DNA from: a virus
Taxonomy: Duplodnaviria > Heunggongvirae > Uroviricota > Caudoviricetes
IMG/VR virus record: IMGVR_UViG_2778261392_000003
Length of the DNA: 26,096 nt
Strand: one strand, 5' to 3'
Position numbers and translations under genes: made by a program. The notes below the pieces were generated by a model that saw only the letters and a list, made by a program, of their open reading frames with translations, had not been told where the DNA came from and did not search any database. Positions 1 to 25,704 of the stretch are shown one piece after another; position 1 is the stretch's first letter; every line of letters starts with the position of its first letter.

Positions 1-1032
1 TCAAAAACTTGCTATTGATGTTGGTAGTGTTGCCAGCGGATTAAACCGTAATGCAGTTTCCAGGTGATCCGGTGCCAGATGTGCGTAACGCATAGTCATT
101 TTTATATCGTGATGCCCGAGAATTTTTTGTAAGGCCAGGATATTTCCACCCGACATCATGAAGTGCGCCGCAAACGTATGGCGCAGAACGTGTGTCAGTT
201 GACCGCGAGGGAGCACGATAGACGTTTTTTCCATCACGGATAAAAATTGAAAATAGCAGTCTGTGAAGAAATTGAACCCATCAAGCGCCATGATCTCTTC
301 GTAAAGCTCTTTACTGATAGGGATGCTTCTGTTTTTCTTCCCCTTCGTTCTTACAAAGGTAATTCGGTATTTGGTCACCTGTGAGCGGGTAAGATTTACG
401 GCTTCACGCCAGCGTGCGCCTGTGCTTAAGCATATCTTAACTACCAGTGCCAGAATTGGGTCCTGACGTTTGCAATCAGCCAGCAATTCAACAATCTGCT
501 CATGGGTAAGCCATGCCATCTCTTTTTCTGCGATGGTGAATTTTCGCATGTTCTCCAGTGGGTTCGGATACGACCATTCGCCCAGACGGGATAGTTCGCT
601 AAAAACACTACTTAGATAGCTTTGCTCCAGGTTAATGGTGACCGGGCTTGCTCCTTTCTTCCATTTCTCGCTGAAGTAGATCTCGCCTGTCAGGCGTTTA
701 TCTCGATAGTGGGCAAACATTTTAGAGGTGAGATCGGTTGCAAGAGGATTGCCCAGAGCGTCAACCATCAACAGCAATTTGTCATAAACATGCTGCCCAG
801 CTGTCAGAGATTTACCATGTAGTTTGAACCATAGCTCAACCACGTCTTTCAGTGTTCGACGATCCACGGATTCACCCAGCCAGGGCTTTGCTTCGGTTTC
901 TTCCATCGTGTGACGCTCAAAAGCCAGTGCTTCGCCTTTGGTGGCGAATTGTTTACGTACACGACGCCCACTACGTCCGGCGGGGTAACATTCGCAAAGC
1001 CATTTTCCTGTGGTGAGTTTTCGTACTGCCAT
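1..1032 (-). CDS. int: Tyrosine integrase, P2/186 family (complete; stop codon at window positions 1-3)
   Basis: 343 aa ORF; C-terminal catalytic region with HVLRHTFAAH...RYAHL typical of tyrosine recombinases; located at prophage end next to the repressor operon as in P2/186. Confidence 0.9.
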   Translation of the reverse strand: MAVRKLTTGKWLCECYPAGRSGRRVRKQFATKGEALAFERHTMEETEAKPWLGESVDRRTLKDVVELWFKLHGKSLTAGQHVYDKLLLMVDALGNPLATDLTSKMFAHYRDKRLTGEIYFSEKWKKGASPVTINLEQSYLSSVFSELSRLGEWSYPNPLENMRKFTIAEKEMAWLTHEQIVELLADCKRQDPILALVVKICLSTGARWREAVNLTRSQVTKYRITFVRTKGKKNRSIPISKELYEEIMALDGFNFFTDCYFQFLSVMEKTSIVLPRGQLTHVLRHTFAAHFMMSGGNILALQKILGHHDIKMTMRYAHLAPDHLETALRFNPLATLPTSIASF

Positions 1033-1112
1033 AAAAAATGCCCTCCAGTGGAGAACATTTTTACTGTATGTATAACCAGTGTCAATGTATGAAATCAGTC
1101 AATAATACATCT

Positions 1113-2444
1113 TTAGTTCAACATTAAAGCTTCAATGGTGGACGAAACAAGTGTTCGGGGAGGCACTGCGTCTAAGCCGTTTTGAAAGAAATCATAGGTA
1201 GCACGTTCAGTCCATTTTCTTCTGGTTTCATCATCTTTTATAAAGAATGGAGATGTTGTATCAATATAGTCCAGTACGATCCCATAAATAGCACATTCAG
1301 TATTATCTATCCTATAAATATCTTCATCGTAACTTAAATATTCAAAGCCTAAGGTTTTGATAATGCTTTCTGCATCCACAGAATTATCTAGATAACTTAA
1401 TGCCAAAGGGCGATTTAAAGAGTATAATATTACCCCTAACATTCGATATAATGAATAACCAAATACTTTCCCTGGACCAATTCCAGATTGAGATAGCACC
1501 TGATATATTTCAAAGTGGCGTGATAATGTTTCTACTTCACGTAAAGACAACTTAGCCCTTTGTATTATCGTTTTTATGATATGCCCGCATGATTCGTCTA
1601 CTTCTTGCAGTTTTTGAGAATCATTTTTTAATATTCCCCATAAAGCAACAGATGCGTATGCAGGTGTATAGTTATCTGGTTTATATGTATCTGGCAATAC
1701 AAATGTAAACTTAATGAATTTGTCTAAATACTGATCTGCATTTATGGATAAACCATACAGATGCCTTATTGATGCCTTGAGTTGTTGAGTCTTTGCAACC
1801 AATACAAAATTTAAATTTTTTATTTCAAAAATGTGTTTGATATTTTCTATGATTGAAAGAGCGAATGTAGGTTTACATCTGTCCAGTTCGTCTATAAAAA
1901 TCGTTATTTTATATTCCTCCGTAAGATGCGATATTGTACTTCTCAGTGTCTCGATGTTTTTCTGCGCCTCTATATGATCGTCTAATAATGTTTCAATTGT
2001 ACTGTCAATTGCACTCGAAGTTGCTTCTTTGATAGCATCTTCGAAGCCATCAACAATGTCATCTGCATTTTGTTTTAACACCCATCCAGTGCCTGCTTTG
2101 AAAATGGTTTTCAAACCAAAACGTATTGCTGGAAGTGTTTTATTTATTAACTCCTTTCGTTCATTTTTGGGAAGAAGTGCAGCAACACCAGCCATTAACG
2201 TCAAAATTGGGGCATCATTATGATCTTCAGCGAAAGCATCAATGTAAACTACTTTATGTTTTTGATTATTGCTTTCAATTAGATTTGCAACTTTTTTGCA
2301 AAACTCTGTTTTCCCCGTGCCCCATCCGCCATCTATAACCAGTGGAGATAAGTTAATATCAGAGTCAAGTAGCGATATTAATTTTTCAGCAATAGGCTTA
2401 CGAAGGAACTCGTCACGATAATCAAACGTATATTCAATAGGCAT
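1113..2444 (-). CDS. KAP-family P-loop NTPase (accessory cargo, candidate defence protein)
   Basis: 443 aa; Walker A GGWGTGKT near N-terminus; Walker B with KAP-typical hhhhDELDRC (IFIDELDRC); ATG at 2444 preceded by GGAG RBS; AT-rich by eye compared with phage core; only 31 bp downstream of the repressor stop, same strand. Confidence 0.7.
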   Translation of the reverse strand: MPIEYTFDYRDEFLRKPIAEKLISLLDSDINLSPLVIDGGWGTGKTEFCKKVANLIESNNQKHKVVYIDAFAEDHNDAPILTLMAGVAALLPKNERKELINKTLPAIRFGLKTIFKAGTGWVLKQNADDIVDGFEDAIKEATSSAIDSTIETLLDDHIEAQKNIETLRSTISHLTEEYKITIFIDELDRCKPTFALSIIENIKHIFEIKNLNFVLVAKTQQLKASIRHLYGLSINADQYLDKFIKFTFVLPDTYKPDNYTPAYASVALWGILKNDSQKLQEVDESCGHIIKTIIQRAKLSLREVETLSRHFEIYQVLSQSGIGPGKVFGYSLYRMLGVILYSLNRPLALSYLDNSVDAESIIKTLGFEYLSYDEDIYRIDNTECAIYGIVLDYIDTTSPFFIKDDETRRKWTERATYDFFQNGLDAVPPRTLVSSTIEALMLN

Positions 2445-2475
2445 TTAGAACTCCAGTTATTTAATATATTGTGTG

Positions 2476-3051
2476 TTAAAATTTTTCTGCTCTTCTTAGT
2501 ATGCAACACCACACAATTCCAACAATCTGTATTTCGTCTCTAGAACACTCAAAACCACGATTTCCTCCTTCAACATATAATCTGTTATTAGGTAAGCGGG
2601 TCAGGGTTCGGACCGAAATTTTTTCGTCGATACCTATTAGCCACAATCCATCGCTTATATCATCATATTCAAAACTACATATATATTCGTTATCCAGATC
2701 TTCAATGATGAATGGGTTACATATTTTTTCAGGTAAGAATGTTTTATCAAAAACATATGCCCCATCTTCAATTAGTGTTCCAGAAATTAATTTTTTCTTT
2801 GGTACTAAAATTTGCGCATTTGTATTTGAAATATTTTTATCACCTATACCGAATGACAACCATTCTAGTGAATAACCAGTTTCGATAGCACATTGCAAAA
2901 CCCAATCTGCAGGGAAGATGTCTCGCATGTAACGTGTAGCCATAGTGCTCTTGGATACTCCCAAGTGATCGCAAAGAGCCTGTCTAGTAGAGAACCCATA
3001 CGCCTCAACTAGACGTTCAATGACTTTCTTACCACCGCTGCTGAAATCCAT
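2476..3051 (-). CDS. cI: Phage immunity repressor, 186 CI-like (N-terminal HTH plus C-terminal domain)
   Basis: 191 aa, same size class as phage 186 CI; N-terminal HTH-like segment (TRQALCDHLGVSKSTMATRYMR); ATG at 3051 with GGAGGA RBS; divergent from the early lytic operon. Confidence 0.7.
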   Translation of the reverse strand: MDFSSGGKKVIERLVEAYGFSTRQALCDHLGVSKSTMATRYMRDIFPADWVLQCAIETGYSLEWLSFGIGDKNISNTNAQILVPKKKLISGTLIEDGAYVFDKTFLPEKICNPFIIEDLDNEYICSFEYDDISDGLWLIGIDEKISVRTLTRLPNNRLYVEGGNRGFECSRDEIQIVGIVWCCILRRAEKF

Positions 3052-5013: not shown

Positions 5014-5867
5014 GCACCATCCTGAAATGGGCGGGAAATAAAACCGCCATTATGTCCGAACTGAAAAAACACCTTCCTGCTGGCCCGCGACTGGTTGAAC
5101 CTTTCGCGGGTTCCTGTGCTGTGATGATGGCGACGGATTACCCCAGCTATCTGGTTGCTGATATTAATCCTGATTTAATCAACCTCTATAAAAAGATTGC
5201 CGCTGATTGTGAATCGTTTATATCTCGTGCCAGAGCTTTATTTGAGGAAGCAAACAGGGAGGTGGCTTATTACAACATAAGGCAGGAGTTTAACTGCTCA
5301 ACTGAAATTACTGACTTCATGAAAGCAGTATATTTCCTGTATCTCAATCGTCACGGTTACCGTGGGTTATGTCGCTATAACAAGAGCGGGCATTTCAACA
5401 TTCCCTACGGTAATTATAAAAATCCGTATTTCCCTGAAAAAGAAATTCGCGTATTTGCAGAGAAAGCCCAGCGAGCAACGTTTATCTGCGCCAGCTTTGA
5501 TGAAACGCTGGCGATGCTGCAGTTGGGGGATGTGGTGTATTGCGATCCGCCTTATGACGGTACGTTTTCCGGCTATCACACTGACGGCTTCACTGAAGAT
5601 GACCAGTATCACCTGGCATCTGTTCTTGAATATCGATCATCAGAAGGTCATCCAGTCATTGTTTCTAACAGTGACACATCCCTGATCCGTTCGCTGTATC
5701 GAAATTTCACTCACCACTACATCAAGGCAAAACGCAGCATCGGCGTGTCGGCTGGCGAGAGTAAATCTGCAACAGAAATCATTGCTGTTTCCGGGGCGCG
5801 CTGCTGGGTGGGATTTGATCCTTCGTGTGGCGTGGATAGTTCTGCTGTGTACGAGGTGCGTGTATGA
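5010..5867 (+). CDS. dam: DNA N6-adenine methyltransferase, Dam family (likely GATC-specific)
   Basis: Motif I-like EPFAGSCAV near N-terminus and catalytic DPPY (CDPPYDG); ATG 5010 with GGAGG RBS; ATGA overlap with A gene start. Confidence 0.85.
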
Positions 5868-8278
5868 GTCATGACGATATGAGCAACTCTAGCGGCTTTA
5901 ACGAGGCCGCTGCAGCATTTTCATGGAACGGCCCGAAAAAGGCCATTAACCCTTATCTGGACCCGGCGGAAGTTGCGCCGGAGTCTGCACTTTCAAACCT
6001 GATCACTCTGTACGCTGCCGATAATGAGCAGGAACAGCTGCGCCGCGATGCACTGAGTGAGCAGGTCTGGGAGCGTTATTTCTTTAATGAATCTCGTGAT
6101 CCTGTCCAGCGCGAAATGGAGCAGGATAAGCTCATTAGCCGGGCAAAGCTGGCGCATGAACAGCAGCGTTTTAACCCGGACATGGTCATTCTGGCGGACG
6201 TCAGCGCCCAGCCCACCCATATTAGCAAGCCGCTGATGCAACGTATCGAATACTTCAGCAGCCTGGGCAGGCCAAAGGCTTATTCCCGCTATTTGCGTGA
6301 GACGATTAAGCCATGTCTGGAGCGACTGGATTGTGTACGTGACAGTCAGCTGTCTGCTTCTTTCCGTTTTATGGCAAGCCATCAAGGGCTGGAGGGCCTG
6401 CTGATCCTGCCTGAAATGAGTCAGGATCAGGTGAAACGCCTGTCCACCCTGGTAGCTGCGCATATGAGCATGTGCCTTGATGCAGCTTGTGGCGATTTGT
6501 ATGCCACTGATGACGTTAAGCCAGAAGAAATCCGCAAGACATGGGAAAAGGTGGCGGCGGAAACCCTGCGTCTGGATGTCATCCCACCTGCGTTTGAGCA
6601 ACTCCGTCGGAAAAGAAACCGCCGTAAACCCGTGCCCTATGAACTCATTCCGGGTTCGCTGGCGCGTATGTTGTGCGCCGACTGGTGGTATCGGAAATTA
6701 TGGAAAATGCGTTGCGAATGGCGGGAAGAGCAGTTGCGTGCTGTCTGCCTGGTCAGCAAAAAAGCATCTCCCTATGTCAGCTATGAAGCCGTGATGCATA
6801 AACGTGAGCAGCGCCGTAAGTCGCTGGAGTTTTTCCGTTCTCATGAACTGGTGAACGAAGACGGCGAAACGCTGGACATGGAGGATGTGGTAAACGCCAG
6901 CAGCAGCAACCCTGCGCATCGCCGCAATGAGATGATGGCCTGTGTTAAAGGTCTGGAGCTTATCGCGGAAATGCGCGGTGACTGCGCCGTTTTCTACACT
7001 ATCACCTGTCCGTCACGTTTCCATTCCACGCTCAACAACGGCAGACCCAACCCGACCTGGACAAATGCGACGGTAAGACAAAGCAGCGATTATCTGGTCG
7101 GCATGTTTGCTGCATTTCGTAAGGCAATGCACAAAACCGGGTTGCGCTGGTATGGCGTGCGGGTGGCTGAGCCGCACCATGACGGTACTGTGCACTGGCA
7201 TCTCATGTGCTTCATGCGTAAAAAAGACCGCCGCGCCATCACTGCATTACTGCGTAAGTTTGCCATCCGTGTAGACCGCGAGGAGCTGGGCAACAACACG
7301 GGGCCACGCTTTAAGTCTGAGCTGATTAACCCGCGCAAAGGAACACCGACAAGCTACATCGCGAAATACATCAGTAAGAACATTGACGGGCGTGGTCTGG
7401 CTGGCGAGATCAGCAAGGAAACGGGTAAATCCCTGCGTGATAACGCCGAATACGTTAATGCCTGGGCGTCTCTGCATCGTGTTCAGCAGTTCCGCTTCTT
7501 TGGTATTCCGGGACGTCAGGCTTACCGTGAACTTCGCTTGCTGGCAGGTCAGGCGGCAAGGCAACAGGGTGACAAAAAAGCAGGTGCGCCAATACTGGAT
7601 GACCCGCGCCTTGACGCCATCCTGGCTGCTGCTGATGCTGGTTGTTTTGCCACCTACATCATGAAGCAGGGCGGCGTACTGGTTCCCCGTAAATATCACC
7701 TTATCAGAACCGCTTATGAAATCAACGAAGAGCCGACCGCCTATGGCGATCACGGCATTCGTATTTATGGCATCTGGTCACCCATTGCAGAGGGCAAGTT
7801 CTGCACTCACGCAGTGAAGTGGAAAATGGTTCGTAAGGCCGTTGACGTTCAGGAGGCGGTAGCCGACCAGGGCGCTTGCGCCCCTTGGACTCGTGGCAAT
7901 AACTGTCCCCTTGCTGAAAATTTAAACCAACAAGGGAAAGACAAATCAGCTGATGGGGACTCCAGAACGGATATTACCCGTATGAATGACAAGGAGTTGC
8001 ACGATTACCTGCACAGTATGAGCAAAAAAGAGCGCCGGGAACTGGCTGCAAGGTTACGCCAGGTGAAACCGAAACGGCGTAAAGACTACAAACAGCGAAT
8101 TACAGACCATCAGCGACAGCAGCTCGTCTATGAACTGAAGTCCAGGGGATTTGATGGCAGCGAGAAAGAAGTCGATTTGCTCCTTCGCGGCGGCAGTATT
8201 CCGTCAGGAGCAGGCCTGCGTATCTTCTATCGGAACCAGCGTCTGAAGGAAGATGATAAGTGGCGGAACCTGTATTAA
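5864..8278 (+). CDS. A: Replication initiation endonuclease (P2 gpA-like rolling-circle initiator)
   Basis: 804 aa; HWHLMCF metal-binding type motif; size and position as P2 gene A at end of early operon. Confidence 0.85.
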
Positions 8279-8430: not shown

Positions 8431-8619
8431 ATGCAGGACTATTTTTTGGAGTCTTTGAAGCTCCAGCGCATTGATTTTTTTCTTAAGCTTGTAGCGGCTA
8501 GTGAGTGTAGTGATGAAGAGAAGGGGCTGGCTCTGCAGTGGGTTTCTGAATTGACTGATGAACTCATGGCAAAAATCAGAAGCCACGAATACAACCGCTC
8601 AATGGATGTCATCAGCTGA
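8431..8619 (+). CDS. Small protein of SOS-controlled module (possible Tum-like antirepressor component), function unknown
   Basis: 62 aa; ATG 8431 with AGGAGGA RBS; immediately downstream of LexA box; followed 10 nt later by DinI-like gene. Confidence 0.5.
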   Translation: MQDYFLESLKLQRIDFFLKLVAASECSDEEKGLALQWVSELTDELMAKIRSHEYNRSMDVIS

Positions 8620-8629
8620 GGTGACTTTT

Positions 8630-8863
8630 ATGCGCATTGAAATAATGATCGATAAAGAGCAGAAGATTAGCCAGTCTACCCTGGACGCCCTTGAATCCGA
8701 GCTTTACCGCAATCTGCGCCCCCTGTATCCCAAAACGGTAATTCGCATTCGCAAAGGTAGCTCTAACGGTGTGGAACTAACCGGACTGCAACTGGATGAA
8801 GAAAGAAAACAAGTGATGAAAATTATGCAGAAGGTGTGGGAGGACGACAGCTGGCTGCATTAA
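8630..8863 (+). CDS. DinI-family protein
   Basis: 77 aa beginning MRIEIMIDK and ending WEDDSWLH, matching hallmark ends of E. coli DinI (MRIEV...WESADDWF); GAGGTG RBS 6 nt upstream of ATG 8630. Confidence 0.75.
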   Translation: MRIEIMIDKEQKISQSTLDALESELYRNLRPLYPKTVIRIRKGSSNGVELTGLQLDEERKQVMKIMQKVWEDDSWLH

Positions 8864-9397: not shown

Positions 9398-9885
9398 GGA
9401 AACTCCTTTTATTGGTGTTTGCTATTTGAATAAAAATACGCCAAACAGAGTGTTAACTGTGAATCTGGAAAGAATCGTTGTAAGTACCCCGCTTAGGTGT
9501 CCCATTCTATTTTAGAGGTTCTCGTGCATATGGATTATGTTATCTGAAAGCTAACTTCCGCTTCCCGTTCACAGCGAACATTCATCTTTGTAAACCCGTA
9601 TGATCCGTTTTTCAAGTGGCCATTCAGATACGGATTTTCACTTCCTTGACAGTGCATGACTATGCTGCATGAAATCGCATGATCGATTGAGGATCGTCTT
9701 TGCTCAGATCCGCCAGAACTGGCGGGCTTTTGCTCATGTCATGCATGTGCATGAAAACCACTGCATAAAGCGGGCAGGCGTGGCGGGGATACGAGCGCGC
9801 GGCAGTGGATATGTTCACAAAACGGATGAAATCTAACATGTAATGTCATATTATCTAAAAGCTGTTAAGTATGACGGGAGGAATA

Positions 9886-11124
9886 ATGCGACATTTCATC
9901 GAAACTATCTTCTTTAAAAGGAACGATGAGCCTTACACATTAAATCTTGATGGTAAGAATCTAATAATATCAGGAGATAATGGCTCTGGTAAAACTAGGT
10001 TGATCGAGAATATTTATGAGTTTATAGAAAAATCGATTAATTCACATGATCCTTATACTAAGGAGCAGCTACAAAAGGAATTGAATTCCAGTCAAGAAAA
10101 CTTAAAGTATTCAAATAGAGGGGATGGTAATTATAGCTATTTAAACGAAGAAATTGAGAGACTGAAAGAAAAATTAAAAGAATTTGAGAGCTTTGATATT
10201 ACTTTTAATGATGTGGTTGATTTCAGGGTTGCTGCAAAAAAGAAAAAATCAATTATAAGATTATTTCCTGCTATTCGAGAAGCGAAAATAAAAAATGATG
10301 GTAAGATTAGCAGCCTCGATTTGTTGTTAACTGAGTATGGGAACGCACAGAGAAATAATTCTAAGATTGATGCTGGTATGTATTTTGAAAGATACATAGT
10401 TACATTGTGGAATTATGCTTTAGTCAGTAAGGGAGTGGGCAAGGATGATGACTATAAAAGAGCCTTTGATATTATTGAGAGTATTAATGATGACTTAAAA
10501 GAACTTTTTGAAGATGAAAGTATTAGAATGGATTTTGATCTCGACAAGTTGAAAATCTATCTTTTACAAAATAATAAGGAACCATTTGGACTTGATAAGT
10601 TGTCATCTGGTTTTTCATCAATTCTTTCTATTTATACTGATTTATTGATAAAAGCAGAGCTTGATAAAATCAGAAAACATGATATGACAGGGATAGTACT
10701 TATTGATGAAATTGATGCTCATCTTCATGTAACATTGCAAAAGAAAGTATTTAGTTTTTTTTCATCATCTTTTCCGCAAATACAATTTATTGTTTCTACG
10801 CATTCACCTTTCGTAATCCAATCAGTATCTGATGCGATTATATTTAATCTCTCAACATTGGATCAGATGGGTGATTTATCATTGTATTCTTACACAGCAA
10901 TTATAAAGGGATTGTTGGGTGAGGATGTATCTTCGGATAAGCTAAATGCATTAGTTAAAGAATTAATGACTTTAGTAGAAAATAATGTCTTCGACGATAG
11001 ATTTCATTCTATAATGAAAACGTTACAGAAGAGTATTGATTTTCTTGATAAAAGTTCAAAAGCAGCTTTTATGATCGCTAAGAGTAAATATTTAGATTAT
11101 AGCGAAAGGGAAGACGATGTTTAA
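9886..11124 (+). CDS. ptuA: ABC/AAA15-type ATPase, Septu PtuA-like
   Basis: Walker A GDNGSGKT, ABC signature-like LSSGF, Walker B IVLIDEIDAHLH, H-loop STHSPF; coiled-coil-like insert; start taken at ATG 9886 (GGAGG upstream), alternative ATG 9871; AT-rich by eye. Confidence 0.65.
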   Translation: MRHFIETIFFKRNDEPYTLNLDGKNLIISGDNGSGKTRLIENIYEFIEKSINSHDPYTKEQLQKELNSSQENLKYSNRGDGNYSYLNEEIERLKEKLKEFESFDITFNDVVDFRVAAKKKKSIIRLFPAIREAKIKNDGKISSLDLLLTEYGNAQRNNSKIDAGMYFERYIVTLWNYALVSKGVGKDDDYKRAFDIIESINDDLKELFEDESIRMDFDLDKLKIYLLQNNKEPFGLDKLSSGFSSILSIYTDLLIKAELDKIRKHDMTGIVLIDEIDAHLHVTLQKKVFSFFSSSFPQIQFIVSTHSPFVIQSVSDAIIFNLSTLDQMGDLSLYSYTAIIKGLLGEDVSSDKLNALVKELMTLVENNVFDDRFHSIMKTLQKSIDFLDKSSKAAFMIAKSKYLDYSEREDDV

Positions 11125-11788
11125 TGTTACTAGAAACATTCCTGCACCTCAATGCTTGTCGAGAAAAGTATATAACCATAAAACAGTTGTAAATGCTTTA
11201 GACGAAATATTTCATGGAAAATGTTATCTCTGTGAGCAAGGTAATCTTATGGATCCAGAGATAGAACATTTTATTCCACATCGTGATCTTGATGAGCTCA
11301 AATATGATTGGAACAATCTATTTTTAGCTTGCAGTCGATGCAATAGTATTAAAAGTGATTCTTTTGAAAACTTACTTGATTGCACAAAGAGTGATGTTGA
11401 TGTTTTCAGTGAGATTGTTCATCTCGCAGGGAACGCTATAACGAGTGGTGTTCAAGTATACCCAAGAAGAAAAAGACCAAGTAGAAAGGTTTTAAATACA
11501 GTCAAATTATTAGATAAGTGTTTTAACTCTTCGAGTACGGGGTTGAGGGGCATTACAAGAGCAAATCTCTCAGAGAAGTTACAAGATGAATTGTTTTACT
11601 TTACTGGTTGGAGAATGAAACTTGTCAGTGATCGAAGCACAGAACAAGAAATCCAAGAGGCCAAGAATAAGCTAAAGCCAATGTGTAATGTATCATATCC
11701 ATTTTCTGTTTTTTGGCGTTGGCATTTATTAACTGATATTCGAGTAATGAAAAAATTCCCAAGAATCAGAGATGAGCTTGGTTTTTAA
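11117..11788 (+). CDS. ptuB: HNH endonuclease, Septu PtuB-like
   Basis: 223 aa; CxxC (CYLCEQ), HFIPH, and NLFLACSRCNSIK form a classic HNH zinc-finger nuclease motif; 8-nt overlap with upstream ATPase gene (translational coupling). Confidence 0.65.
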   Translation: MFNVTRNIPAPQCLSRKVYNHKTVVNALDEIFHGKCYLCEQGNLMDPEIEHFIPHRDLDELKYDWNNLFLACSRCNSIKSDSFENLLDCTKSDVDVFSEIVHLAGNAITSGVQVYPRRKRPSRKVLNTVKLLDKCFNSSSTGLRGITRANLSEKLQDELFYFTGWRMKLVSDRSTEQEIQEAKNKLKPMCNVSYPFSVFWRWHLLTDIRVMKKFPRIRDELGF

Positions 11789-11825: not shown

Positions 11826-12854
11826 TTAAGTTAAACTATAATCTTCAAATTGGATTATATCTTCATCTATCCAATAATTTAGTTCTTGTAACCGTTTTTG
11901 TAAAGGTATCAGTTCATTTATAACAAAAACCTTACTAGCCTTCTCCACATCCCCAAACCCCCCAACATTATTAGGCATTATCCCCATCATTTGCGGCGGC
12001 ACGCGGTGCGCAGCCATCATGTCATCACGGCTCACGTTCTTGATATTCAAAAACTCATCCTTCGCCGCGACTTCTGACAATGGGATGATCTGAAGCCCGT
12101 CCTTTTTGCCGTTAGGCGAGTACATAAACAGGTTGCGGAAGTTACCCGGTCCTTTGGCGCTTTTCATCGCGTTGCGGAGGTTGTTCACATCCTCCTGGTT
12201 CTGCGCGGCATCGGTCATGTACATGATGAAGCCAGCATGACTGCCGTTTATGTAATACTTTCGACGGAACAGCGTGGCGGACTCATTGAGCAGGGCGGAC
12301 GGAATAGCAGAAAGATAACCGGGCAGGCCGTAGATCTCCTGGTTGATATCGGGTTCCATCAGATGAAAGATGCTGCCTTTCGTGAACTGATACGGCTGGG
12401 TTGTCATACCGTATTGCACAAACCAGTAGGTATCCAGGTCTAACCCGCGTCGGGTGTATTTTGCCAGAGCAGGCTCAAGGGCGATAACTTCACCGAAGCG
12501 GTTCGTGCGTTTCTCCAGGTAGGCGTTACCAAATACCAGATAGTCCTGCACAAAACGTGAAAAAGCCTGCTGGCTGAGCAGCGGGTGGGGGATGTAGGTA
12601 CTGGTCAGAATGTTGCATTTCACCGCAATTGGTGAACTGTGATGCACGGCGGCGCGGAAGGTGCGCGCCAGTCCGTCAAAGCTTACTGGCGGCTCATACC
12701 AGCGATCTGTCTGTACGCATTCCACATAGTCCAGTAGTTCGCGGCGGTCCAGAACAGGAACGGGATCGCCAAAGCTGAATGCTTCGGCTGTAGTTTGACT
12801 TTTATGCTGGATCTGGTTCGTCGACGCAGCGCGGTTCTTCTTACTCTTTCCCAT
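11826..12854 (-). CDS. Q: Portal protein (P2 gpQ-like)
   Basis: 342 aa; synteny and size; ATGA overlap with terminase P stop. Confidence 0.9.
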   Translation of the reverse strand: MGKSKKNRAASTNQIQHKSQTTAEAFSFGDPVPVLDRRELLDYVECVQTDRWYEPPVSFDGLARTFRAAVHHSSPIAVKCNILTSTYIPHPLLSQQAFSRFVQDYLVFGNAYLEKRTNRFGEVIALEPALAKYTRRGLDLDTYWFVQYGMTTQPYQFTKGSIFHLMEPDINQEIYGLPGYLSAIPSALLNESATLFRRKYYINGSHAGFIMYMTDAAQNQEDVNNLRNAMKSAKGPGNFRNLFMYSPNGKKDGLQIIPLSEVAAKDEFLNIKNVSRDDMMAAHRVPPQMMGIMPNNVGGFGDVEKASKVFVINELIPLQKRLQELNYWIDEDIIQFEDYSLT

Positions 12855-14620
12855 CAAAAAATCTCCACAATATTACTGGTATTGGCGGACTCGCCCTGCA
12901 GTGGTTCGTTAAACAGTGCGTGCATTGTTGCCCAGGCCAGATCGGCGTGGCTGGCTTCTTCGCTGCGGCTGGCTTCATAGGTTGGGCGGTTGCCACTGGC
13001 GGTGGTTGCGCGACGGATTGCCATGAATGACTGCGCAATGTCGGTGTGCCCGGCGTCAAACTCCAGACGGCGGTGGCTGATAATGTCGTAGGCCTTGAGT
13101 ACCAGGGCGTTTTTAACGTTGGGGTTGTAGACAAACTCCCGGACGGCAGGAAAGAACGCTTTCACGTTCTCGTAAACCCCGTGACCAACGCCGGTTGAGT
13201 CGATACCGATATAAGTCACGTTGTACTGTTCGGTAAGTTTTTTGATGGCGTCAGCCTGGGCGCGGAAGTCCATCCCGCGCCACTGGTGACGCTCAAGAAT
13301 GCGGAACTTACCACCCGGCACGGCTGGCGGTGCCACCACCACGCATCCAGCGCTGTCGCCGTTTTGCGTACCTTTTGCCGGGTCATAACCGATCCACACT
13401 TCGCGCCAGTCAAACGGGCGCAGCGCCAGTGCATGAAAGTCGGTCCAGACTTCCCAACTGTCCACCATGCACGCCTGCAGCTCGCTGAGCGGAAACACGG
13501 ACGCGAGATCGTCCACAAACTCGCACATCAGCAGGTTCTGGTATTCGTCTGGGCTGTACTCCATGCGTAGCTGGTCGAGGTCGAACAGGTTACAGCCGCC
13601 GCGCACCGCATCTTCCACGGTGACTATCTGGCGGTATTGCCCGTCTGCGCACAGCAGGCCGGGGGCCAGATTGCTGTGGGACAGGTCGATGTCCACCTTA
13701 TCGGCTTTGTTGCGCCCACGGTTGAACAGCGCACCGGACCAGAACGGATAAGCACTGTGTGTCAGACTGGATGGCGTGGAAAAATAGGTTTGTCGCCATT
13801 TTTTGTGAATAGCCATACCGGAAGCCACTTTGCGCAGCTCCTGGAATTTCGGTATCCAGAAATATTCATCCAGATACAGGTTGCCGTGGTAACTCTGGGC
13901 CGTGCGGGCATTGGTGCCGAGGAAGTAAAGCGTGGCCCCGTTAGGAAGCACCATCGGATCGCCTTTCAGCTCCACCTCCACTTCTTTGGCAAAGTCGATG
14001 ATGTACTGTTTAAAGACGTGGGCCTGAGCCTTGCTGGCAGAAAGGAAAATCTGGTTACGCCCGGTCAGCAGGGCGTCAATCAGGGCTTCACGGGCAAAGT
14101 AAAAGGTCGCGCCGATCTGGCGTGACTTCAGCAGGTTGCGGATGCGGTTGGTTTTTCCGGCTTCCCACCAGTGGCGCTGGTAGTTGAACATAGAGGAATG
14201 GAAGATTTCTTCCAGCTTCTCAATCTGTTCATCGGTGAAGACATTCTTTTCCGGCTGACGACGTGGGCCTTTGTTGCGGTTGGCAACGTTAGGGTTTAAG
14301 TCGGCTTCGTTGCCGCCATTGTTAAACTTGCCGATCCGCGCGTGGCGCTCAGACTGGCGTGCCAGCAGGTCAATTTCTTTGAAATCTTTCCCTTCTTTGT
14401 GCTCCTTCATAATGAGCTGGCAGTAGCGTGCGGCGGTGGTGAGCTGCATCTGATCCAGCGGCCCATAGTCACCCCACTTGTCGCGTTTTTTCCAGCTGTG
14501 AACGGTTGCAACTTTCTCGCCCAGCATTTCAGCAATGCGGGCGACGCGGTATCCCTGAAAGTACAGCAGCATGGCCTGCCGACGGGGATCGAGATCTGCG
14601 GGTGTCAGTGTGGTGTTCAT
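12854..14620 (-). CDS. P: Terminase large (ATPase) subunit (P2 gpP-like)
   Basis: 588 aa; position divergent from O-N-M operon; characteristic size. Confidence 0.9.
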   Translation of the reverse strand: MNTTLTPADLDPRRQAMLLYFQGYRVARIAEMLGEKVATVHSWKKRDKWGDYGPLDQMQLTTAARYCQLIMKEHKEGKDFKEIDLLARQSERHARIGKFNNGGNEADLNPNVANRNKGPRRQPEKNVFTDEQIEKLEEIFHSSMFNYQRHWWEAGKTNRIRNLLKSRQIGATFYFAREALIDALLTGRNQIFLSASKAQAHVFKQYIIDFAKEVEVELKGDPMVLPNGATLYFLGTNARTAQSYHGNLYLDEYFWIPKFQELRKVASGMAIHKKWRQTYFSTPSSLTHSAYPFWSGALFNRGRNKADKVDIDLSHSNLAPGLLCADGQYRQIVTVEDAVRGGCNLFDLDQLRMEYSPDEYQNLLMCEFVDDLASVFPLSELQACMVDSWEVWTDFHALALRPFDWREVWIGYDPAKGTQNGDSAGCVVVAPPAVPGGKFRILERHQWRGMDFRAQADAIKKLTEQYNVTYIGIDSTGVGHGVYENVKAFFPAVREFVYNPNVKNALVLKAYDIISHRRLEFDAGHTDIAQSFMAIRRATTASGNRPTYEASRSEEASHADLAWATMHALFNEPLQGESANTSNIVEIF

Positions 14621-19755: not shown

Positions 19756-20194
19756 ACTGCAGAAGGTGGACGACTGGCTTAGTGCCTTACTGGCGAATCT
19801 GGAACCAGTCGCAAGAAGCCGCATGATGCGCCAGCTGGCGCAGGAACTGCGCCGGACACAGCAGCAGAATATCAGGATGCAGCGCAATCCAGATGGCAGC
19901 AGTTATGAACCGCGCAAGGTCACGGCGCGCAGTAAAAAAGGCCGCATCAAACGTCAGATGTTTGCAAAGCTGCGCACCACCAAATACCTGAAAACCGCCG
20001 CCAGCGCCGACTCTGCCAGCGTACAGTTTGAAAGTAAGGTGCAGCGCATTGCCCGCGTTCACCATTATGGCCTGCGCGATCGCGTCAGCCGCAAAGGACC
20101 GGAAGTGCGTTACGCAGAGCGTCGTTTGTTGGGTCTTAATGGTGAGTCTTACGTTCTAACTCTTGATATATTGAATAGATTCCTTCTGTCTTGA
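19748..20194 (+). CDS. S: Tail completion / virion morphogenesis protein S (P2 gpS-like); 3' end lies in AT-rich inserted DNA
   Basis: 148 aa; overlaps R stop; the last ~17 codons (from about 20143) are in visibly AT-rich sequence and overlap the 3' end of the opposite-strand membrane-protein gene. Confidence 0.75.
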   Translation: MAELQKVDDWLSALLANLEPVARSRMMRQLAQELRRTQQQNIRMQRNPDGSSYEPRKVTARSKKGRIKRQMFAKLRTTKYLKTAASADSASVQFESKVQRIARVHHYGLRDRVSRKGPEVRYAERRLLGLNGESYVLTLDILNRFLLS

Positions 20195-20942
20195 ATTCAC
20201 CATATGCCCAATGAATTGCATTTTTTTGTTCAGTCAGAATATATTTCCTAACTTTTTTAGAATAGTGAATGGTCAGTATAAAACCCAAAGAAATCCATAA
20301 TAGAATAAATATGGTTGTTGGGGCAAAGGAATAGATAAAGAATTTGTCTTTAACGAAATTCTTGACTTCTTCATCAATGTAAGCATTCCCTTCATCAGTG
20401 GTTAGTAGTTTACAAAGAATTTCTTTATGTTCGATAGTTAATGATTTGTACTTCTCTGTACTGGCAGAGGATGACTCTTCGCAATCATCCTTTGATATTT
20501 CCCAATCAGGAGTGGTTAATATTGTAGCTGCAGTCGCCAGTTTTTTTGACATATAAAATGATTCACCGGATTTTATCCAATAAAGCAATGTGCTATTTGG
20601 TGGGGTTCTAATGGCTTGGATGAAAACTGGACCAAAAATATAAATTGCACACAAAAAAAGAAGTGAAAAGAGAACCGTGATTGATTTTTCAGCCCATGTG
20701 ATAGTAGGCAGCCTTTTTAATGATATTCGTATAAGAAAAAAATTTAATATAAACGCAGGTATTCCTGATTTTTTCAAAATTACATCATGAGATTTTCTAT
20801 ATTTGAATAGTGCTCTTATAACTATCGTCACCAAAGTTATAACAGCTCCAATAATGGAAATCCATGCGGCAAGTGCCGCTGCCGGGGTGTTTAAAAATTC
20901 AGCATTAAATATATTAGAACTTATTGGATTCATAACACTCAT
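20136..20942 (-). CDS. Multi-pass membrane protein, unknown function (cargo gene between late operons; candidate superinfection-exclusion/abortive-infection protein)
   Basis: 268 aa; 3 hydrophobic helices in first ~110 aa (AAALAAWISIIGAVITLVTIVI; IPAFILNFFLIRI; ITVLFSLLFLCAIYIFGPVFIQAI), ~100 aa charged soluble domain, then a 4th helix (IFILLWISLGFILTI); ATG 20942 with AGGTGG RBS; strongly AT-rich; opposite strand to all flanking late genes. Confidence 0.65.
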   Translation of the reverse strand: MSVMNPISSNIFNAEFLNTPAAALAAWISIIGAVITLVTIVIRALFKYRKSHDVILKKSGIPAFILNFFLIRISLKRLPTITWAEKSITVLFSLLFLCAIYIFGPVFIQAIRTPPNSTLLYWIKSGESFYMSKKLATAATILTTPDWEISKDDCEESSSASTEKYKSLTIEHKEILCKLLTTDEGNAYIDEEVKNFVKDKFFIYSFAPTTIFILLWISLGFILTIHYSKKVRKYILTEQKNAIHWAYGEFKTEGIYSIYQELERKTHH

Positions 20943-23473: not shown

Positions 23474-24885
23474 GCACAAAATTTTATACCCTGCTGACGG
23501 ATATTGGTGCGGCGAAACTTGCCAGCGCCGCCGCGCTCGGTGTGCCTTTAAAAATTACCCATATGGCGGTAGGCGATGGCGGCGGAACATTGCCAACGCC
23601 GGACGCAAAGCAGACAGCATTAGTAAATGAGAAACGCCGGGCTGCGCTGAATATGCTGTACATCGACCCGCAGAACAGCAGCCAGATTATTGCTGAACAG
23701 GTGATCCCTGAAAACGAGGGCGGTTGGTGGATACGTGAAGTGGGCCTGTTTGATGAGTCCGGGGCATTGATTGCCGTGGGCAACTGCCCGGAAAGCTATA
23801 AGCCGCAACTGGCTGAAGGCAGCGGGCGTACCCAGACCGTGCGTATGGTGTTGATTACCAGCAGCACGGACAATATCACCCTGAAAATCGACCCTGCCGT
23901 AGTGCTGGCAACCCGCAAGTATGTGGATGACAAGGCACTGGAGCTGAAGGTGTACGTGGATGACCTGATGGCAAAACATCTTGTCGCACCGGACCCGCAT
24001 TCACAGTATGCACCCAAAGAAAGTCCGACGTTTACCGGAACCCCCAAAGCGCCAACGCCAGCGGCGGGGAATAACACCACGCAGGTTGCGACCACCGCGT
24101 TTGTTCAGGCGGCACTGACGGCTCTTATTAATGGTGCGCCAGCCACGCTGGACACGCTGAAAGAAATAGCCGTAGCCATTAACAATGATCCGAAATTCAG
24201 TACCACCATTAACAATGCGCTGGCACTGAAAGCGCCACTGTCGAGTCCGGCACTCACCGGAACGCCAACAGCACCTACTGCGGCACAGTCGGTCAACAAT
24301 ACACAGATTGCCACTACAGCTTTTGTGAAATCAGCGATTGCAGCAATGGTGGGTTCTGCACCCGCGGCACTGGATACACTGAACGAACTGGCGGCGGCAC
24401 TGGGGAATGATCCGAACTTTGCCACGACAATGCTTAATGCGCTGGCAGGTAAACAACCGCTGGACAATACGCTGACTAATTTGAGTGGAAAGGATGTAGC
24501 TGGTCTTCTCGCATACCTTGGTTTGGGAGAAGCGGCAAAACGGAATGTAGGTAACGGGCAAAACCAAATTCCGGATATGGCGGCGTTTGCCAGTTCACTT
24601 TCATCAACGGGTTTTCAAAAACTCCCTTCAGGTCTGATTATTCAGTGGGGTATTGTCAGTGGAGCATCAAACTATACGGTGACTTACCCGGTAACATTCC
24701 CAAATCGTTCACTTGCGCTGTTGACTGTGCCACATACAACGTCGGTGGCTGGTATATCTGCAATGGGCATAGCGAACTGTTCTGATATCAGCAAATCACA
24801 GTTCTATATAATTGTTGGCGGTATATCTCAGGGAGAAATTGTCAAATATGAAAGGTCCTGTTTTTGGGTAGCAATCGGTGTATAG
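23470..24885 (+). CDS. H: Tail fibre protein H (constant N-terminal part plus currently fused variable C-terminal cassette)
   Basis: 471 aa; repetitive PT/AT-rich shaft (TGTPKAPT...TGTPTAPT); C-terminal ~110 aa lie inside the inverted-repeat-bounded segment. Confidence 0.85.
24520..24551. repeat. Left inverted repeat of invertible tail-fibre segment (32 bp perfect, degenerate extension to about 24580)
   Basis: GGTTTGGGAGAAGCGGCAAAACGGAATGTAGG is the exact reverse complement of 26065-26096. Confidence 0.75.
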
Positions 24886-24893
24886 GTATATCT

Positions 24894-25289
24894 ATGATTT
24901 ATTTCTCAAAATCGACTAATGGTTTTTTCTTTGATGGTATAAACAGCGACATGCCTGCTGACATTGTTGAGATAAGTACAGACTTATACAATGAATTAAT
25001 TGCCGGACAGCAGGAAGGGGGTAAATTAATCACGTCAGATGAAAATGGTTTACCGGTACTGAAATCTCCGGCGATTGATTATGTCGCACGTGCTGAAAAT
25101 CAGCGAATGCAGTTACTTGCTCATGCCGATAATGTCACAGCTGACTGGCGGGTGGAATTAATGCTTGGTGATATCAGCAGTACAGATAAAGAAAAACTAT
25201 CTGCCTGGATGGACTACAAAAAAGAAGTAAAAGCCGTCGACACTTCGACGGCTCCTGAGATTAGCTGGCCTGAGTTACCGGAGGTGTAG
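24894..25289 (+). CDS. G: Tail fibre assembly protein (gpG/Tfa-like), cassette matching current orientation
   Basis: 131 aa from ATG 24894, 8 nt after H stop; C-terminus similar to the opposite-strand Tfa. Confidence 0.75.
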   Translation: MIYFSKSTNGFFFDGINSDMPADIVEISTDLYNELIAGQQEGGKLITSDENGLPVLKSPAIDYVARAENQRMQLLAHADNVTADWRVELMLGDISSTDKEKLSAWMDYKKEVKAVDTSTAPEISWPELPEV

Positions 25290-25704
25290 GCCATTCAATA
25301 TCTGGAGCACTGGAGGTATCCACCAGTTCCAGTGCGTCCAGGTAATCCAGCCACAAATTATATTGCGCCAGTTCCTCACCTTTCAGACGACCAATAGCTG
25401 CTTTGCCAGGCCATTGCTTACTGTTCATGTATTCGTTAGCCTGGTTAATTAGTAGCTGTCTTTCTGATTCAGTAATTTCAATAAGCTCTTCATGCGTGGG
25501 TGGAGGAATATCTGCCCACGCAGGCAGCCCATCATCTCCGGCAATACGGATTTTTCCTTGTGGCGGTTCAGCCATAAACTCACTGATAATATTTTGATTT
25601 ACTTCCTTTGCGTCTGATAAATCCCATCCCTCTGATTTATATTTATCAATCATATCCACAGGGAAAAAAGCATTATGCCTTGCGCTATAAACATATTCGT
25701 TCAT
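25261..25704 (-). CDS. Alternative tail fibre assembly protein (Tfa') for the inverted orientation
   Basis: 147 aa from ATG 25704; C-terminal DTSSAPDIEWPTPPV resembles plus-strand Tfa DTSTAPEISWPELPEV; convergent with and overlapping G by 29 bp. Confidence 0.7.
   Translation of the reverse strand: MNEYVYSARHNAFFPVDMIDKYKSEGWDLSDAKEVNQNIISEFMAEPPQGKIRIAGDDGLPAWADIPPPTHEELIEITESERQLLINQANEYMNSKQWPGKAAIGRLKGEELAQYNLWLDYLDALELVDTSSAPDIEWPTPPVTQAS

What the first reader, a model, noticed from the sequence alone, without database searches (positions are those of the whole stretch)
1033..2475. KAP-family P-loop NTPase embedded in the lysogenic cI-to-int operon
A 443-aa NTPase with GGWGTGKT and the KAP-typical DELDRC Walker B sits 31 bp downstream of the repressor gene on the same strand, followed by int. 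This placement predicts co-transcription with the repressor in the lysogen, the expression pattern expected for a prophage-borne anti-phage gene. The DNA is visibly AT-rich relative to the phage core. Comparative genomics places KAP NTPases in defence islands, but a single-gene KAP effector at this prophage position is not something I can assign to a named system.
Basis: partly seen in the sequence, partly recalled or inferred. Interest (0 to 1): 0.7.

Follow-up and report, generated by a model that had tools for sequence, protein, structure and literature searches.

The report
Prophage KAP ATPase defence-candidate gene
A 186-like E. coli prophage carries, between its repressor and integrase genes, a soluble KAP-family ATPase that belongs to an already catalogued but untested anti-phage candidate family (PADLOC PDC-S20), in a slot where sister prophages carry proven defence genes.

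Summary
A 443-aa ORF (1113-2444, minus strand) with GGWGTGKT and DELDRC lies 31 nt after cI and 80 nt before int, in DNA of 32-36% GC against 52-61% in the phage core.

It can be assigned. It matches PADLOC's single-gene candidate family PDC-S20 end to end (E 2.6e-173) and Pfam KAP_NTPase (E 4e-50). It has no transmembrane helix and no recognisable effector domain.

The cI-int interval is a cargo hotspot. Among 80 prophages with integrases at least 98% identical there are 14 different contents, including Old, PD-Lambda-1, PDC-M11A, PDC-M18A-like genes and four KAP variants. Phage 186 itself has nothing there. Only 15 of 624 E. coli genomes that share the int leader carry this gene, always with the same cI allele.

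Relatives also sit inside type I restriction operons (hsdS-KAP-hsdR, 7 of 33 species), in a lambdoid moron site and in a satellite-like island. The gene is under purifying selection (dN/dS 0.19) with a faster-evolving C-terminus. The closest solved fold is the RADAR ATPase RdrA.

Most likely it is a lysogen-expressed, NTP-switch anti-phage protein. That rests on context and family, not on any experiment. It is a new member of a known kind and of moderate interest.

The parts
1113..2444 (-). KAP-family P-loop NTPase gene, 443 aa, PADLOC PDC-S20 family
   Evidence: ORF. Pfam PF07693 at 171 bits, aa 15-315. PADLOC PDLC04956 E 2.6e-173, aa 4-442 of 443. PHROG 8614, unknown function. RefSeq names the identical protein 'KAP family P-loop NTPase fold protein'. 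dN/dS 0.19.
2307..2330 (-). Walker A motif GGWGTGKT (aa 39-46)
   Evidence: Motif position. G39, W41, G42, G44, K45 and T46 are invariant in 35 homologues.
1875..1892 (-). Walker B motif DELDRC (aa 185-190)
   Evidence: Motif position. D185, E186, L187, D188, R189 and C190 are invariant in 35 homologues.
1974..2135 (-). Conserved insert between Walker A and B (aa 104-157). It is not transmembrane and contains a basic segment followed by an acidic amphipathic helix.
   Evidence: pLDDT below 50 in the AF2 model. It is as conserved as the NTPase core (58% mean identity), with no nonsynonymous change against the 93% allele. Maximum 19-residue hydropathy for the whole protein is 1.16. The basic segment aa 103-126 (TLPAIRFGLKTIFKAGTGWVLKQN) has net charge +3 to +4 across the sampled homologues.
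1116..1490 (-). Fast-evolving all-helical C-terminal domain (aa 319-443); candidate specificity or sensor domain
2445..2475 (-). cI-KAP intergenic spacer with ribosome-binding site GGAG (2454-2451); no terminator
   Evidence: Sequence, scan. The spacer is conserved in the 93% allele.
1033..1112 (-). Conserved int leader that forms the int-side boundary of the cargo slot. It holds a promoter-like TTGACA-17-AAAAAT (1085-1057) and the int ribosome-binding site GGAGG.
   Evidence: Sequence, scan. 624 E. coli genomes share the first 64 nt. Homology with minimal-slot prophages resumes exactly at 1112, the base after the KAP stop codon. About 60-65 nt is shared by most slot variants.
2476..3051 (-). 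186-type CI repressor gene. Its C-terminal two-thirds (2476-2875) belong to the same window-specific AT-rich block as the KAP gene.
   Evidence: Pfam. This cI allele occurs in exactly the 15 E. coli genomes that carry the KAP gene. dS of cI (0.275) and KAP (0.213) against int (0.052). Breakpoint at about 2875.
1..1032 (-). Tyrosine integrase, last gene of the lysogenic unit within the window
   Evidence: Pfam Int_N plus Phage_integrase. The prophage is integrated next to rcdA in E. coli.

Best explanation
The gene is accessory cargo of a 186-like (Peduoviridae) prophage. It is a soluble, roughly 445-aa KAP-family P-loop NTPase of the PADLOC candidate family PDC-S20, inserted in the lysogenic cI-int transcription unit so that it is made in the lysogen together with the repressor. 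Its most likely role is defence of the lysogen against other phages.

Proposed mechanism (inferred, not shown):
1. The conserved N-terminal 318 residues act as an NTP-dependent switch that can assemble into a ring or oligomer, as its closest structural relative RdrA does.
2. The rapidly diverging helical C-terminal domain (aa 319-443) determines which phage product or infection cue is recognised.
3. Because no nuclease, protease, TIR or pore domain is present, the output must come from the NTPase assembly itself. Possibilities are uncontrolled NTP turnover or sequestering/remodelling of a phage or host complex, or PifA-like damage to cell energetics.

Shown here: family membership, motifs, position, slot variability, linkage to the cI allele, purifying selection, domain-wise divergence, genomic associations of the family.
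Inferred: co-transcription, anti-phage activity, oligomerisation, sensor role of the C-terminus, nature of the output.
For: - Family: PADLOC PDC-S20 E 2.6e-173 over the full length, with weaker partial matches to PifA (1e-16) and QatA (9e-12). Pfam KAP_NTPase.
- Slot: 14 distinct contents among 80 prophages whose integrases are at least 98% identical. All have GC 0.30-0.37, and in every variant the long cargo ORFs lie on the cI/int strand. They include Old (1.6e-234), PD-Lambda-1 (3e-120), PDC-M11A, PDC-M18A-like genes and four KAP variants.
- Phage 186 has cI and int abutting in one annotated operon.
- Patchy distribution: 15 of 5426 complete E. coli genomes, 15 of 624 with the int leader, one copy disrupted by ISKpn26.
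- A 54%-identical variant (P0010) sits in the same slot as a clean 1350-nt replacement.
- Family contexts elsewhere: hsdM-hsdS-KAP-hsdR-ygjP in 7 of 33 species loci. Next to hsdM/hsdS in Vibrio. Beside BrxR in a satellite-like island. Between Q and the lysis genes of a lambdoid prophage. In the cI-int slot of Serratia and Yersinia prophages.
- Selection: dN/dS 0.19 overall, 0.15 for the N-terminal part and 0.28 for the C-terminal part. C-terminal identity is 25% against 50-58% elsewhere.
- Literature: single-protein KAP NTPases with unknown C-terminal regions protect against phages and need Walker B (PMC13552941). The single-gene KAP system 'Reve' from P4 hotspots is protective (PMC13586616). 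PifA is a KAP member without transmembrane helices that aborts T7 infection (PMC13001434).
Against: - No experiment on this protein or on any PDC-S20 member was found. 'PDC-S20' appears in no searchable paper, so the defence role is guilt by association.
- No effector domain is detectable, so the output step is speculative.
- The validated KAP defence proteins differ. EF_KAP has two transmembrane helices and a 322-aa C-terminal region.
- Structural similarity to RdrA is modest (14% identity, Foldseek TM 0.34-0.44). It does not prove ring formation.
- Many relatives sit inside type I RM operons, which leaves open that the protein needs a partner this prophage does not supply.
- Co-transcription with cI is inferred from layout only.
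Confidence: 0.65

Rival explanations
1. The protein is a guard or accessory of a type I restriction-modification enzyme, analogous to PrrC in the EcoprrI locus. It would monitor or exploit HsdMSR and fire when a phage inhibits restriction. In the prophage it would work only with a host hsd system, not as an autonomous single-gene system.
For: Type I RM subunits are the commonest neighbours of 430-490-aa family members. HsdR, HsdM and HsdS each occur in 7 of 33 species loci and YgjP in 5, in the order hsdM-hsdS-KAP-hsdR-ygjP with abutting or overlapping reading frames. A Vibrio member lies beside hsdM/hsdS. The absence of an effector domain fits a protein that acts through a partner.
Against: In E. 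coli, Serratia, Yersinia and Enterobacter prophages and in a Salmonella island the gene has no hsd neighbour. PADLOC models the family as single-gene. Embedding in RM operons is common for independent defence genes. No physical or genetic link to Hsd was tested.
Confidence: 0.15
2. It is a non-defence moron that serves the prophage itself. For example, it could be an ORC/Cdc6-like DNA-binding ATPase that modulates lysogeny maintenance, induction, integration/excision or host replication.
Against: The gene is absent from phage 186. It is also absent from about half of the sister prophages, which have a minimal slot (42 of 80). The same slot holds unrelated defence genes. Family members occur outside prophages in RM operons. 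No DNA-binding domain was detected. The cI linkage is explained by a recombination block that spans the cI C-terminus and the cargo.
Confidence: 0.08
3. It acts in conflicts between mobile elements rather than against lytic phages: against P4-like satellites that parasitise P2/186-type helpers, or as an addiction module that penalises loss of the prophage.
For: P2/186-like phages are the helpers of P4 satellites. One relative sits in a satellite-like island. KAP-type 'Reve' is carried by P4 (PMC13586616). The gene is tightly linked to the immunity gene.
Against: No antitoxin-like partner is present; the upstream small ORFs are not conserved between lineages. The family is widespread in non-prophage RM loci. 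Nothing points specifically to satellites.
Confidence: 0.07
4. It is a decaying or non-functional remnant carried along with the immunity region.
For: One E. coli genome has an IS element in the gene. The gene is AT-rich and rare.
Against: The ORF is intact and full-length with all invariant motifs. dN/dS is 0.19, with zero nonsynonymous changes in the conserved insert. There are 242 clusters at 50% identity with E<=1e-30, nearly all of about the same length among the best 150 listed.
Confidence: 0.02

Closest known systems
PADLOC phage-defence candidate PDC-S20 (single-gene candidate family, PADLOC-DB v2.0.0)
   Same: Full-length HMM match (PDLC04956, E 2.6e-173, aa 4-442 against model 5-448 of 450). 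Single gene. KAP NTPase plus a short helical C-terminus. Three other slot variants also hit PDC-S20 models.
   Different: Nothing detectable at sequence level. However, PDC-S20 is only a computational candidate and I found no experimental test of it.
PifA of the F plasmid (KAP NTPase, T7 exclusion)
   Same: KAP-type P-loop domain without transmembrane helices. Carried by a mobile element. The PADLOC PifA model matches aa 35-252 (E 1.4e-16). PifA causes abortive infection with membrane depolarisation and nucleotide leakage (as summarised in PMC13001434).
   Different: The PADLOC PifA model is 720 positions long, against 443 aa here. Only the NTPase core aligns (model positions 43-255 of 720). 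The C-terminal region of PifA has no counterpart here, and no trigger is known for this protein.
RdrA, the ATPase of the RADAR system (PDB 8fnt, 8hr8, 8fnu)
   Different: RdrA is about 800-850 aa and works with the adenosine deaminase RdrB. There is no RdrB here, no RdrA HMM hit, 12-14% identity and low TM-scores.
KAP NTPase single-protein defences EF_KAP and relatives (PMC13552941), and 'Reve' from P4 satellites (PMC13586616)
   Same: One protein consisting of a KAP P-loop domain plus a C-terminal region of unknown fold, carried by mobile elements. Anti-phage activity was shown experimentally, and for EF_KAP it depends on Walker B and on the C-terminal region.
   Different: EF_KAP has two transmembrane helices and a 322-aa C-terminal region, and comes from Enterococcus. 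Reve was chosen because DefenseFinder and PADLOC did not recognise it, so it is probably a different subfamily.
QatA of the QatABCD system
   Same: KAP-type ATPase in a defence system, with weak HMM matches (PADLOC 9e-12; NCBIfam 44 bits).
   Different: NCBIfam's cut-off is 600 bits. No qatB, qatC or qatD genes are adjacent.
cI-int defence hotspot of K139-like P2-related Vibrio phages (Rousset et al. 2022, PMC9122126), and the 'integrase-primase' hotspot of P2-like prophages (PMC13586616)
   Same: The same position in the same phage lineage (between repressor and integrase) holding interchangeable defence genes.
   Different: It is resolved here for E. coli 186-like prophages at nucleotide level. 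The boundaries are the cargo stop codon plus the 80-nt int leader on one side and a point inside cI on the other, with near one-to-one pairing of cargo and cI allele.
PrrC anticodon nuclease embedded in the EcoprrI type I RM locus
   Same: A P-loop NTPase gene embedded in a type I RM operon, as seen for 7 of 33 family loci.
   Different: PrrC has an ABC-type NTPase and a C-terminal nuclease domain. This family has neither. In this window there is no RM system at all.

Membership tests
KAP family P-loop NTPase (Pfam PF07693) | Profile match above the curated gathering score | tested here: met
   171.1 bits against a cut-off of 20; aa 15-315 cover model positions 1-290 of 293.
KAP family P-loop NTPase (Pfam PF07693) | Walker A GxxGxGK[ST] and KAP-type Walker B D[DE]LDR | tested here: met
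   GGWGTGKT at aa 39 and DELDRC at aa 185, invariant in 35 homologues.
KAP family P-loop NTPase (Pfam PF07693) | Transmembrane helices associated with the NTPase domain (typical of many members, not of PifA) | tested here: not met
   Maximum 19-residue Kyte-Doolittle hydropathy is 1.16. The insert aa 104-157 is charged and amphipathic. This places the protein in the soluble, PifA-like part of the family.
PADLOC PDC-S20 | Full-length match to a PDC-S20 HMM | tested here: met
   PDLC04956, E 2.6e-173, 575.6 bits, aa 4-442.
PADLOC PDC-S20 | Single-gene organisation (no conserved partner) | tested here: met
   The neighbours are cI and int. Upstream small ORFs in other lineages are not homologous across lineages (Vibrio versus Serratia) and are absent here.
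PADLOC PDC-S20 | Demonstrated anti-phage activity | not testable with these tools
   No paper mentions PDC-S20. Plaque assays are needed.
PifA (F-plasmid T7 exclusion) | Full-length similarity including the PifA C-terminal region | tested here: not met
   Only aa 35-252 match model positions 43-255 of 720 (58 bits).
Qat system (QatA) | QatA equivalog score and adjacent qatB, qatC and qatD genes | tested here: not met
   44 bits against a cut-off of 600. The flanking genes are cI and int.
RADAR (RdrA/RdrB) | RdrA-length ATPase with an adjacent RdrB adenosine deaminase | tested here: not met
Tmn / YobI-family NTPases | Two transmembrane helices inserted within the P-loop domain | tested here: not met
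   No transmembrane segment.
Reve (P4-hotspot KAP system, PMC13586616) | Sequence similarity to the Reve protein | not testable with these tools
   No sequence or supplement is held. Reve was unrecognised by PADLOC, whereas this protein is recognised, which argues for a different subfamily (inference).
Prophage cI-int defence hotspot | Conserved flanks with many unrelated, interchangeable cargo genes that include known defence systems | tested here: met
   14 contents in 80 prophages, including Old, PD-Lambda-1 and PDC-M11A. A clean replacement junction was mapped.

The most novel reading that the evidence does not exclude
PDC-S20 proteins would be a distinct class of 'effector-less' immune NTPases. 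A soluble KAP ring would be the weapon itself, or would commandeer a host machine such as the type I restriction motor. The hypervariable helical C-terminus would read out phage proteins or anti-restriction activity. In 186-like prophages the gene would be exchanged as one cassette with the C-terminal part of the immunity repressor, so that immunity type and defence specificity are inherited together.
Probability: 0.2. Interest if true: 0.7.

Novelty: new member of a known kind. Interest (0 to 1): 0.4.

Why it matters
If it is active, this would be an experimentally tractable E. coli representative of PDC-S20: 1.3 kb, one gene, native promoter context known. The family has about 240 clusters at 50% identity and no assigned mechanism.

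KAP NTPases were proposed as defence proteins in 2004 but only began to be validated in 2026, and only in membrane-bound or satellite-borne forms. A soluble 443-aa version without any effector domain asks how an NTPase alone stops a phage.

Two observations give concrete handles:
- The family is embedded between hsdS and hsdR in many species.
- Natural allelic series (KAP-A, KAP-B, 446-aa and 505-aa variants) occupy one prophage slot and differ mainly in the C-terminus. These are ready-made domain-swap reagents for specificity.

The cargo/cI-allele pairing also bears on how temperate phages shuffle immunity and defence modules.

Tried and rejected
- Literature search for 'PDC-S20': no paper.
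- Sequence of the 'Reve' KAP system: no supplement is held, and the preprint gives no sequence.
- Sequence search of the PDB with the family profile: no hit.
- Conserved partner gene hypothesis. The ORFs upstream of the KAP gene in Vibrio (199 aa, Zn-ribbon-like) and Serratia (166 aa, weak BRCT) are unrelated, and neither is present in E. coli. The 160/166-aa ORF is conserved only between Yersinia and Serratia.
- Transmembrane or strongly amphipathic membrane anchor in the insert: no transmembrane helix, and the hydrophobic moment is unremarkable.
- Mobile-cassette signatures: only short chance repeats around the slot.
- Structured RNA: no Rfam family anywhere in the window.
- Internal promoters: promoter-like hits do not exceed the shuffled expectation (14 against 10.2 +/- 3.2).
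- KAP-Septu functional pairing, prompted by reports that the NTPase Tmn synergises with Septu. The window's Septu cargo occurs in only 5 complete E. coli genomes, none of which has the KAP gene, so co-occurrence gives no support.
- Payne et al. 2024 on embedded defences (10.1101/2024.01.29.577857): no mention of KAP.
Full report
OBSERVATION

The ORF table shows three consecutive genes on the minus strand:
- int at 1-1032, 343 aa (Pfam Int_N plus Phage_integrase);
- a 443-aa ORF at 1113-2444;
- a 191-aa 186-type CI repressor at 2476-3051 (Phage_CI_repr 7e-29, Phage_CI_C 2e-23).

GGWGTGKT begins at residue 39 and DELDRC at residue 185. The cI-KAP spacer is 31 nt and carries GGAG 6 nt before the ATG. 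The KAP-int spacer is 80 nt and carries a promoter-like TTGACA-17-AAAAAT and GGAGG. No terminator-like hairpin lies on the minus strand in either spacer.

GC is 0.32-0.36 between 1000 and 3000, against 0.52-0.61 in the structural genes.

WHAT THE PROTEIN IS

Family matches:
- Pfam KAP_NTPase matches residues 15-315 at 171 bits, against a cut-off of 20.
- PADLOC's single-gene candidate family PDC-S20 matches residues 4-442 at E 2.6e-173. PifA (1e-16) and QatA (9e-12) match only the NTPase core.
- NCBIfam QatA scores 44 bits against a cut-off of 600.
- PHROG 8614 has no assigned function.
- RefSeq calls the identical protein 'KAP family P-loop NTPase fold protein'.

Family size: 2345 proteins at E<=1e-5 among the scored candidates. 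In a library of 50%-identity representatives there are 242 clusters at E<=1e-30 and 6593 at E<=1e-10. Of the best 150 listed, nearly all are 430-470 aa.

An alignment of 35 members shows invariant residues in:
- Walker A (G39, W41, G42, G44, K45, T46, E47, F48);
- a DAFxxDH motif (69-75);
- DELDRCxP (185-192);
- K203-H204;
- LSLRE (299-303).

Identity to the query averages 57% for residues 1-103, 58% for 104-157, 50% for 158-318, and only 25% for 319-443. There is no transmembrane segment; the maximum 19-residue hydropathy is 1.16.

STRUCTURE

The AlphaFold2 model has mean pLDDT 79.5 and pTM 0.75. Only the insert 104-157 is unresolved. That insert lies between Walker A and Walker B. Here it is a conserved basic segment followed by an acidic helix.

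THE SLOT

In phage 186 the cI and int genes abut. They are annotated as one lysogenic operon driven by pL and pE, with a predicted terminator beyond orf69. In this prophage 1443 bp lie between them.

Distribution in complete E. coli genomes:
- 624 share the 64 nt next to int, but only 15 carry the KAP gene.
- One of those 15 copies is interrupted by ISKpn26.

I fetched 80 IMG/VR prophage contigs whose integrase is at least 98% identical and extracted the DNA between the cI stop and the int start. There are 14 distinct contents, all with GC 0.30-0.37. In every variant the long cargo ORFs lie on the cI/int strand.

| Contigs | Content of the slot |
|---|---|
| 42 | Minimal 395-bp version with a 63-aa ORF |
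| 13 | PD-Lambda-1 (E 3e-120) |
| 4 | Old (E 1.6e-234) |
| 3 | This KAP gene |
| 3 | A 54%-identical KAP |
| 1 | A 446-aa KAP |
| 2 | A 505-aa KAP (PDC-S20 model PDLC04959, 7e-78) |
| 1 | PDC-M11A |
| 2 | PDC-M18A-like |
| remainder | Proteins of unknown family |

The position is not new in kind. Rousset et al. 2022 described a hotspot between cI and int of K139-like P2 relatives in Vibrionaceae (PMC9122126). Moura de Sousa et al. [quoted passage not shown]

BOUNDARIES AND LINKAGE

- Homology with minimal-slot prophages resumes at window position 1112, the base after the KAP stop codon. It is lost inside cI at about 2875. The window-specific AT-rich block is therefore 1113-2875: KAP plus the C-terminal two-thirds of cI.
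- The cI allele occurs in exactly the same 15 E. coli genomes as the KAP gene.
- Against the 93%-identical allele in E. coli E9, dS is 0.275 for cI and 0.213 for KAP but 0.052 for int. cI and KAP therefore share a history that int does not.
- Across the 80 contigs, cI alleles (95% threshold) and cargo types pair almost one to one. The exception is one cI allele found with both a minimal slot (10 contigs) and KAP-B (3 contigs). There the KAP-B gene is a clean replacement of 123 nt by 1350 nt.
- No terminal repeats flank the slot, and no Rfam family matches anywhere in the window.

SELECTION

dN/dS is 0.19 for the whole gene and 0.15 for residues 1-318. The insert has no nonsynonymous change. 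Residues 319-443 give 0.28. The gene is functional and its C-terminus evolves faster, but the ratio stays well below 1, so this comparison shows no positive selection.

WHERE ELSE THE FAMILY LIVES

- A 54%-identical E. coli variant is in the same slot of the same prophage lineage.
- Serratia and Yersinia relatives lie between cI and int of 186-like prophages. They are preceded by a conserved 160-166-aa ORF.
- An Enterobacter relative lies between the Q antiterminator and the lysis genes of a lambdoid prophage.
- A Salmonella relative lies in a satellite-like island with an integrase, BrxR, a primase and Ash.
- A metagenomic relative lies between hsdS and hsdR, and a Vibrio relative lies beside hsdM/hsdS.

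I then scanned one genome per species and took the 33 loci with a 430-490-aa homologue. Two neighbours on each side were scanned. Type I RM subunits are the commonest neighbours: HsdR, HsdM and HsdS each in 7 loci and YgjP in 5. The order is hsdM-hsdS-KAP-hsdR-ygjP, with abutting or overlapping frames.

These contexts are what one expects of a defence gene. They also raise the possibility of a functional link to type I restriction.

MECHANISM

Shown: a conserved NTPase core with intact catalytic motifs, a conserved non-membrane insert, a divergent C-terminal domain, no effector domain, and structural kinship with ring- or oligomer-forming immune and initiator NTPases.

Inferred: the C-terminus senses a phage cue, NTP binding drives assembly, and the assembly itself is the output. 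The output could be NTP consumption, sequestration or remodelling of a target, or PifA-like collapse of cell energetics.

Precedents:
- PifA is a KAP member without transmembrane helices that aborts T7 infection (summarised in PMC13001434).
- EF_KAP and three gut KAP proteins need Walker B and their unknown C-terminal regions (PMC13552941).
- Reve is a single-gene KAP system from P4 that protects E. coli (PMC13586616).

None of these is the same subfamily as far as I can test. EF_KAP is membrane-bound with a 322-aa tail. Reve was selected because PADLOC and DefenseFinder did not recognise it, whereas this protein is recognised.

RIVALS

- A restriction-guard role is the strongest rival (0.15). 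It rests on the hsd embedding. It is weakened because the prophage and island copies have no hsd neighbour.
- A prophage-housekeeping role (0.08) is weakened by absence from 186 and from about half of the sister prophages, and by the unrelated defence genes in the same slot.
- An inter-element conflict or addiction role (0.07) has no specific support.
- Decay (0.02) is contradicted by selection and conservation.

NOVELTY AND VERDICT

The gene is a new member of a known kind. It belongs to a catalogued candidate family, within a protein class whose anti-phage role has just begun to be validated. Its hotspot position has been described in relatives.

What is added here:
- nucleotide-level definition of the E. 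coli 186-type cI-int slot;
- pairing of cargo with cI alleles;
- a natural allelic series of KAP variants;
- the frequency of hsdS-KAP-hsdR embedding;
- evidence that the protein is soluble and lacks an effector domain.

Interest is 0.4. It is a good experimental handle on an unexplained family, but not a surprise to specialists.

IN PASSING

- The same window carries a Septu type I pair (PtuA 9871-11124, PtuB 11117-11788) in the GpA-portal hotspot.
- It carries a DUF6216 gene in a third AT-rich island at 20136-20942.
- The Septu cargo occurs in only five complete E. coli genomes, none of which has the KAP gene. The three hotspots therefore shuffle independently, and this exact prophage is not in that collection.

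Noticed in passing
window 9871-11788 (+): A Septu type I pair occupies the AT-rich island between the replication gene GpA (5864-8278) and the portal gene (11826-12857, minus strand). PtuA is 417 aa (PADLOC 7e-122) and PtuB is a 223-aa HNH protein (2e-82). This is the classical P2 tin/old hotspot. The cargo is found in only 5 complete E. coli genomes, none of which carries the KAP gene.
   Followed up: partly
window 20136-20942 (-): A 268-aa DUF6216 protein (Pfam 7e-12, no PADLOC hit) sits in a third AT-rich island (GC about 0.33) among the late genes. It is a possible further cargo or defence candidate.
   Followed up: partly
window 2476-3051 (-), breakpoint near 2875: The cI gene looks chimeric. 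Its first ~58 codons and the upstream region (up to window 3400) are about 90% identical to cI alleles of other slot types. The remaining codons belong to the window-specific block shared with the KAP gene. Across 80 prophages, cI allele and cargo type pair almost one to one.
   Followed up: partly
L014 5470-5970 and L182 6494-6976 (Serratia and Yersinia 186-like prophages): A conserved 160-166-aa ORF (69% identity, weak BRCT-like hit at E 0.004) lies between cI and the KAP gene in these genera. It is absent in E. coli. It may be a lineage-specific partner or an independent cargo gene.
   Followed up: partly
L100, L105, L106, L107, L109, L112, L123 and L184 (marine Gammaproteobacteria and a metagenome): Family members are embedded in type I RM operons in the order hsdM-hsdS-KAP-hsdR-ygjP, with abutting or overlapping reading frames. 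This recalls prrC in the EcoprrI locus.
   Followed up: partly
E. coli VTB97432v, NZ_CP178694.1 3559398-3562039 (hit H39): The KAP gene is interrupted by an IS5-family ISKpn26 element in one of the 15 E. coli genomes that carry it.
   Followed up: no
window 8558-8863 (+): A DinI-like protein (Pfam 1e-22) is encoded just downstream of the replication gene.
   Followed up: no
window 24864-25289 (+) and 25261-25713 (-): Two convergent, overlapping tail-fibre assembly (Caudo_TAP) genes lie in a lower-GC stretch. They suggest alternative or invertible tail-fibre modules.
   Followed up: no
L030 3255-4911, L025 3943-4914, L076 3445-4911, L082 3945-4919, L093 2408-4579 (IMG/VR prophages): Several other occupants of the same cI-int slot have no PADLOC hit: 349+201 aa, 323 aa, 488 aa, 324 aa and 354+359 aa. 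Only one has even a sub-threshold Pfam hit (the 323-aa ORF to DUF2207_C, 23.5 bits against a cut-off of 33). Given their position they are candidates for undescribed defence genes.
   Followed up: partly
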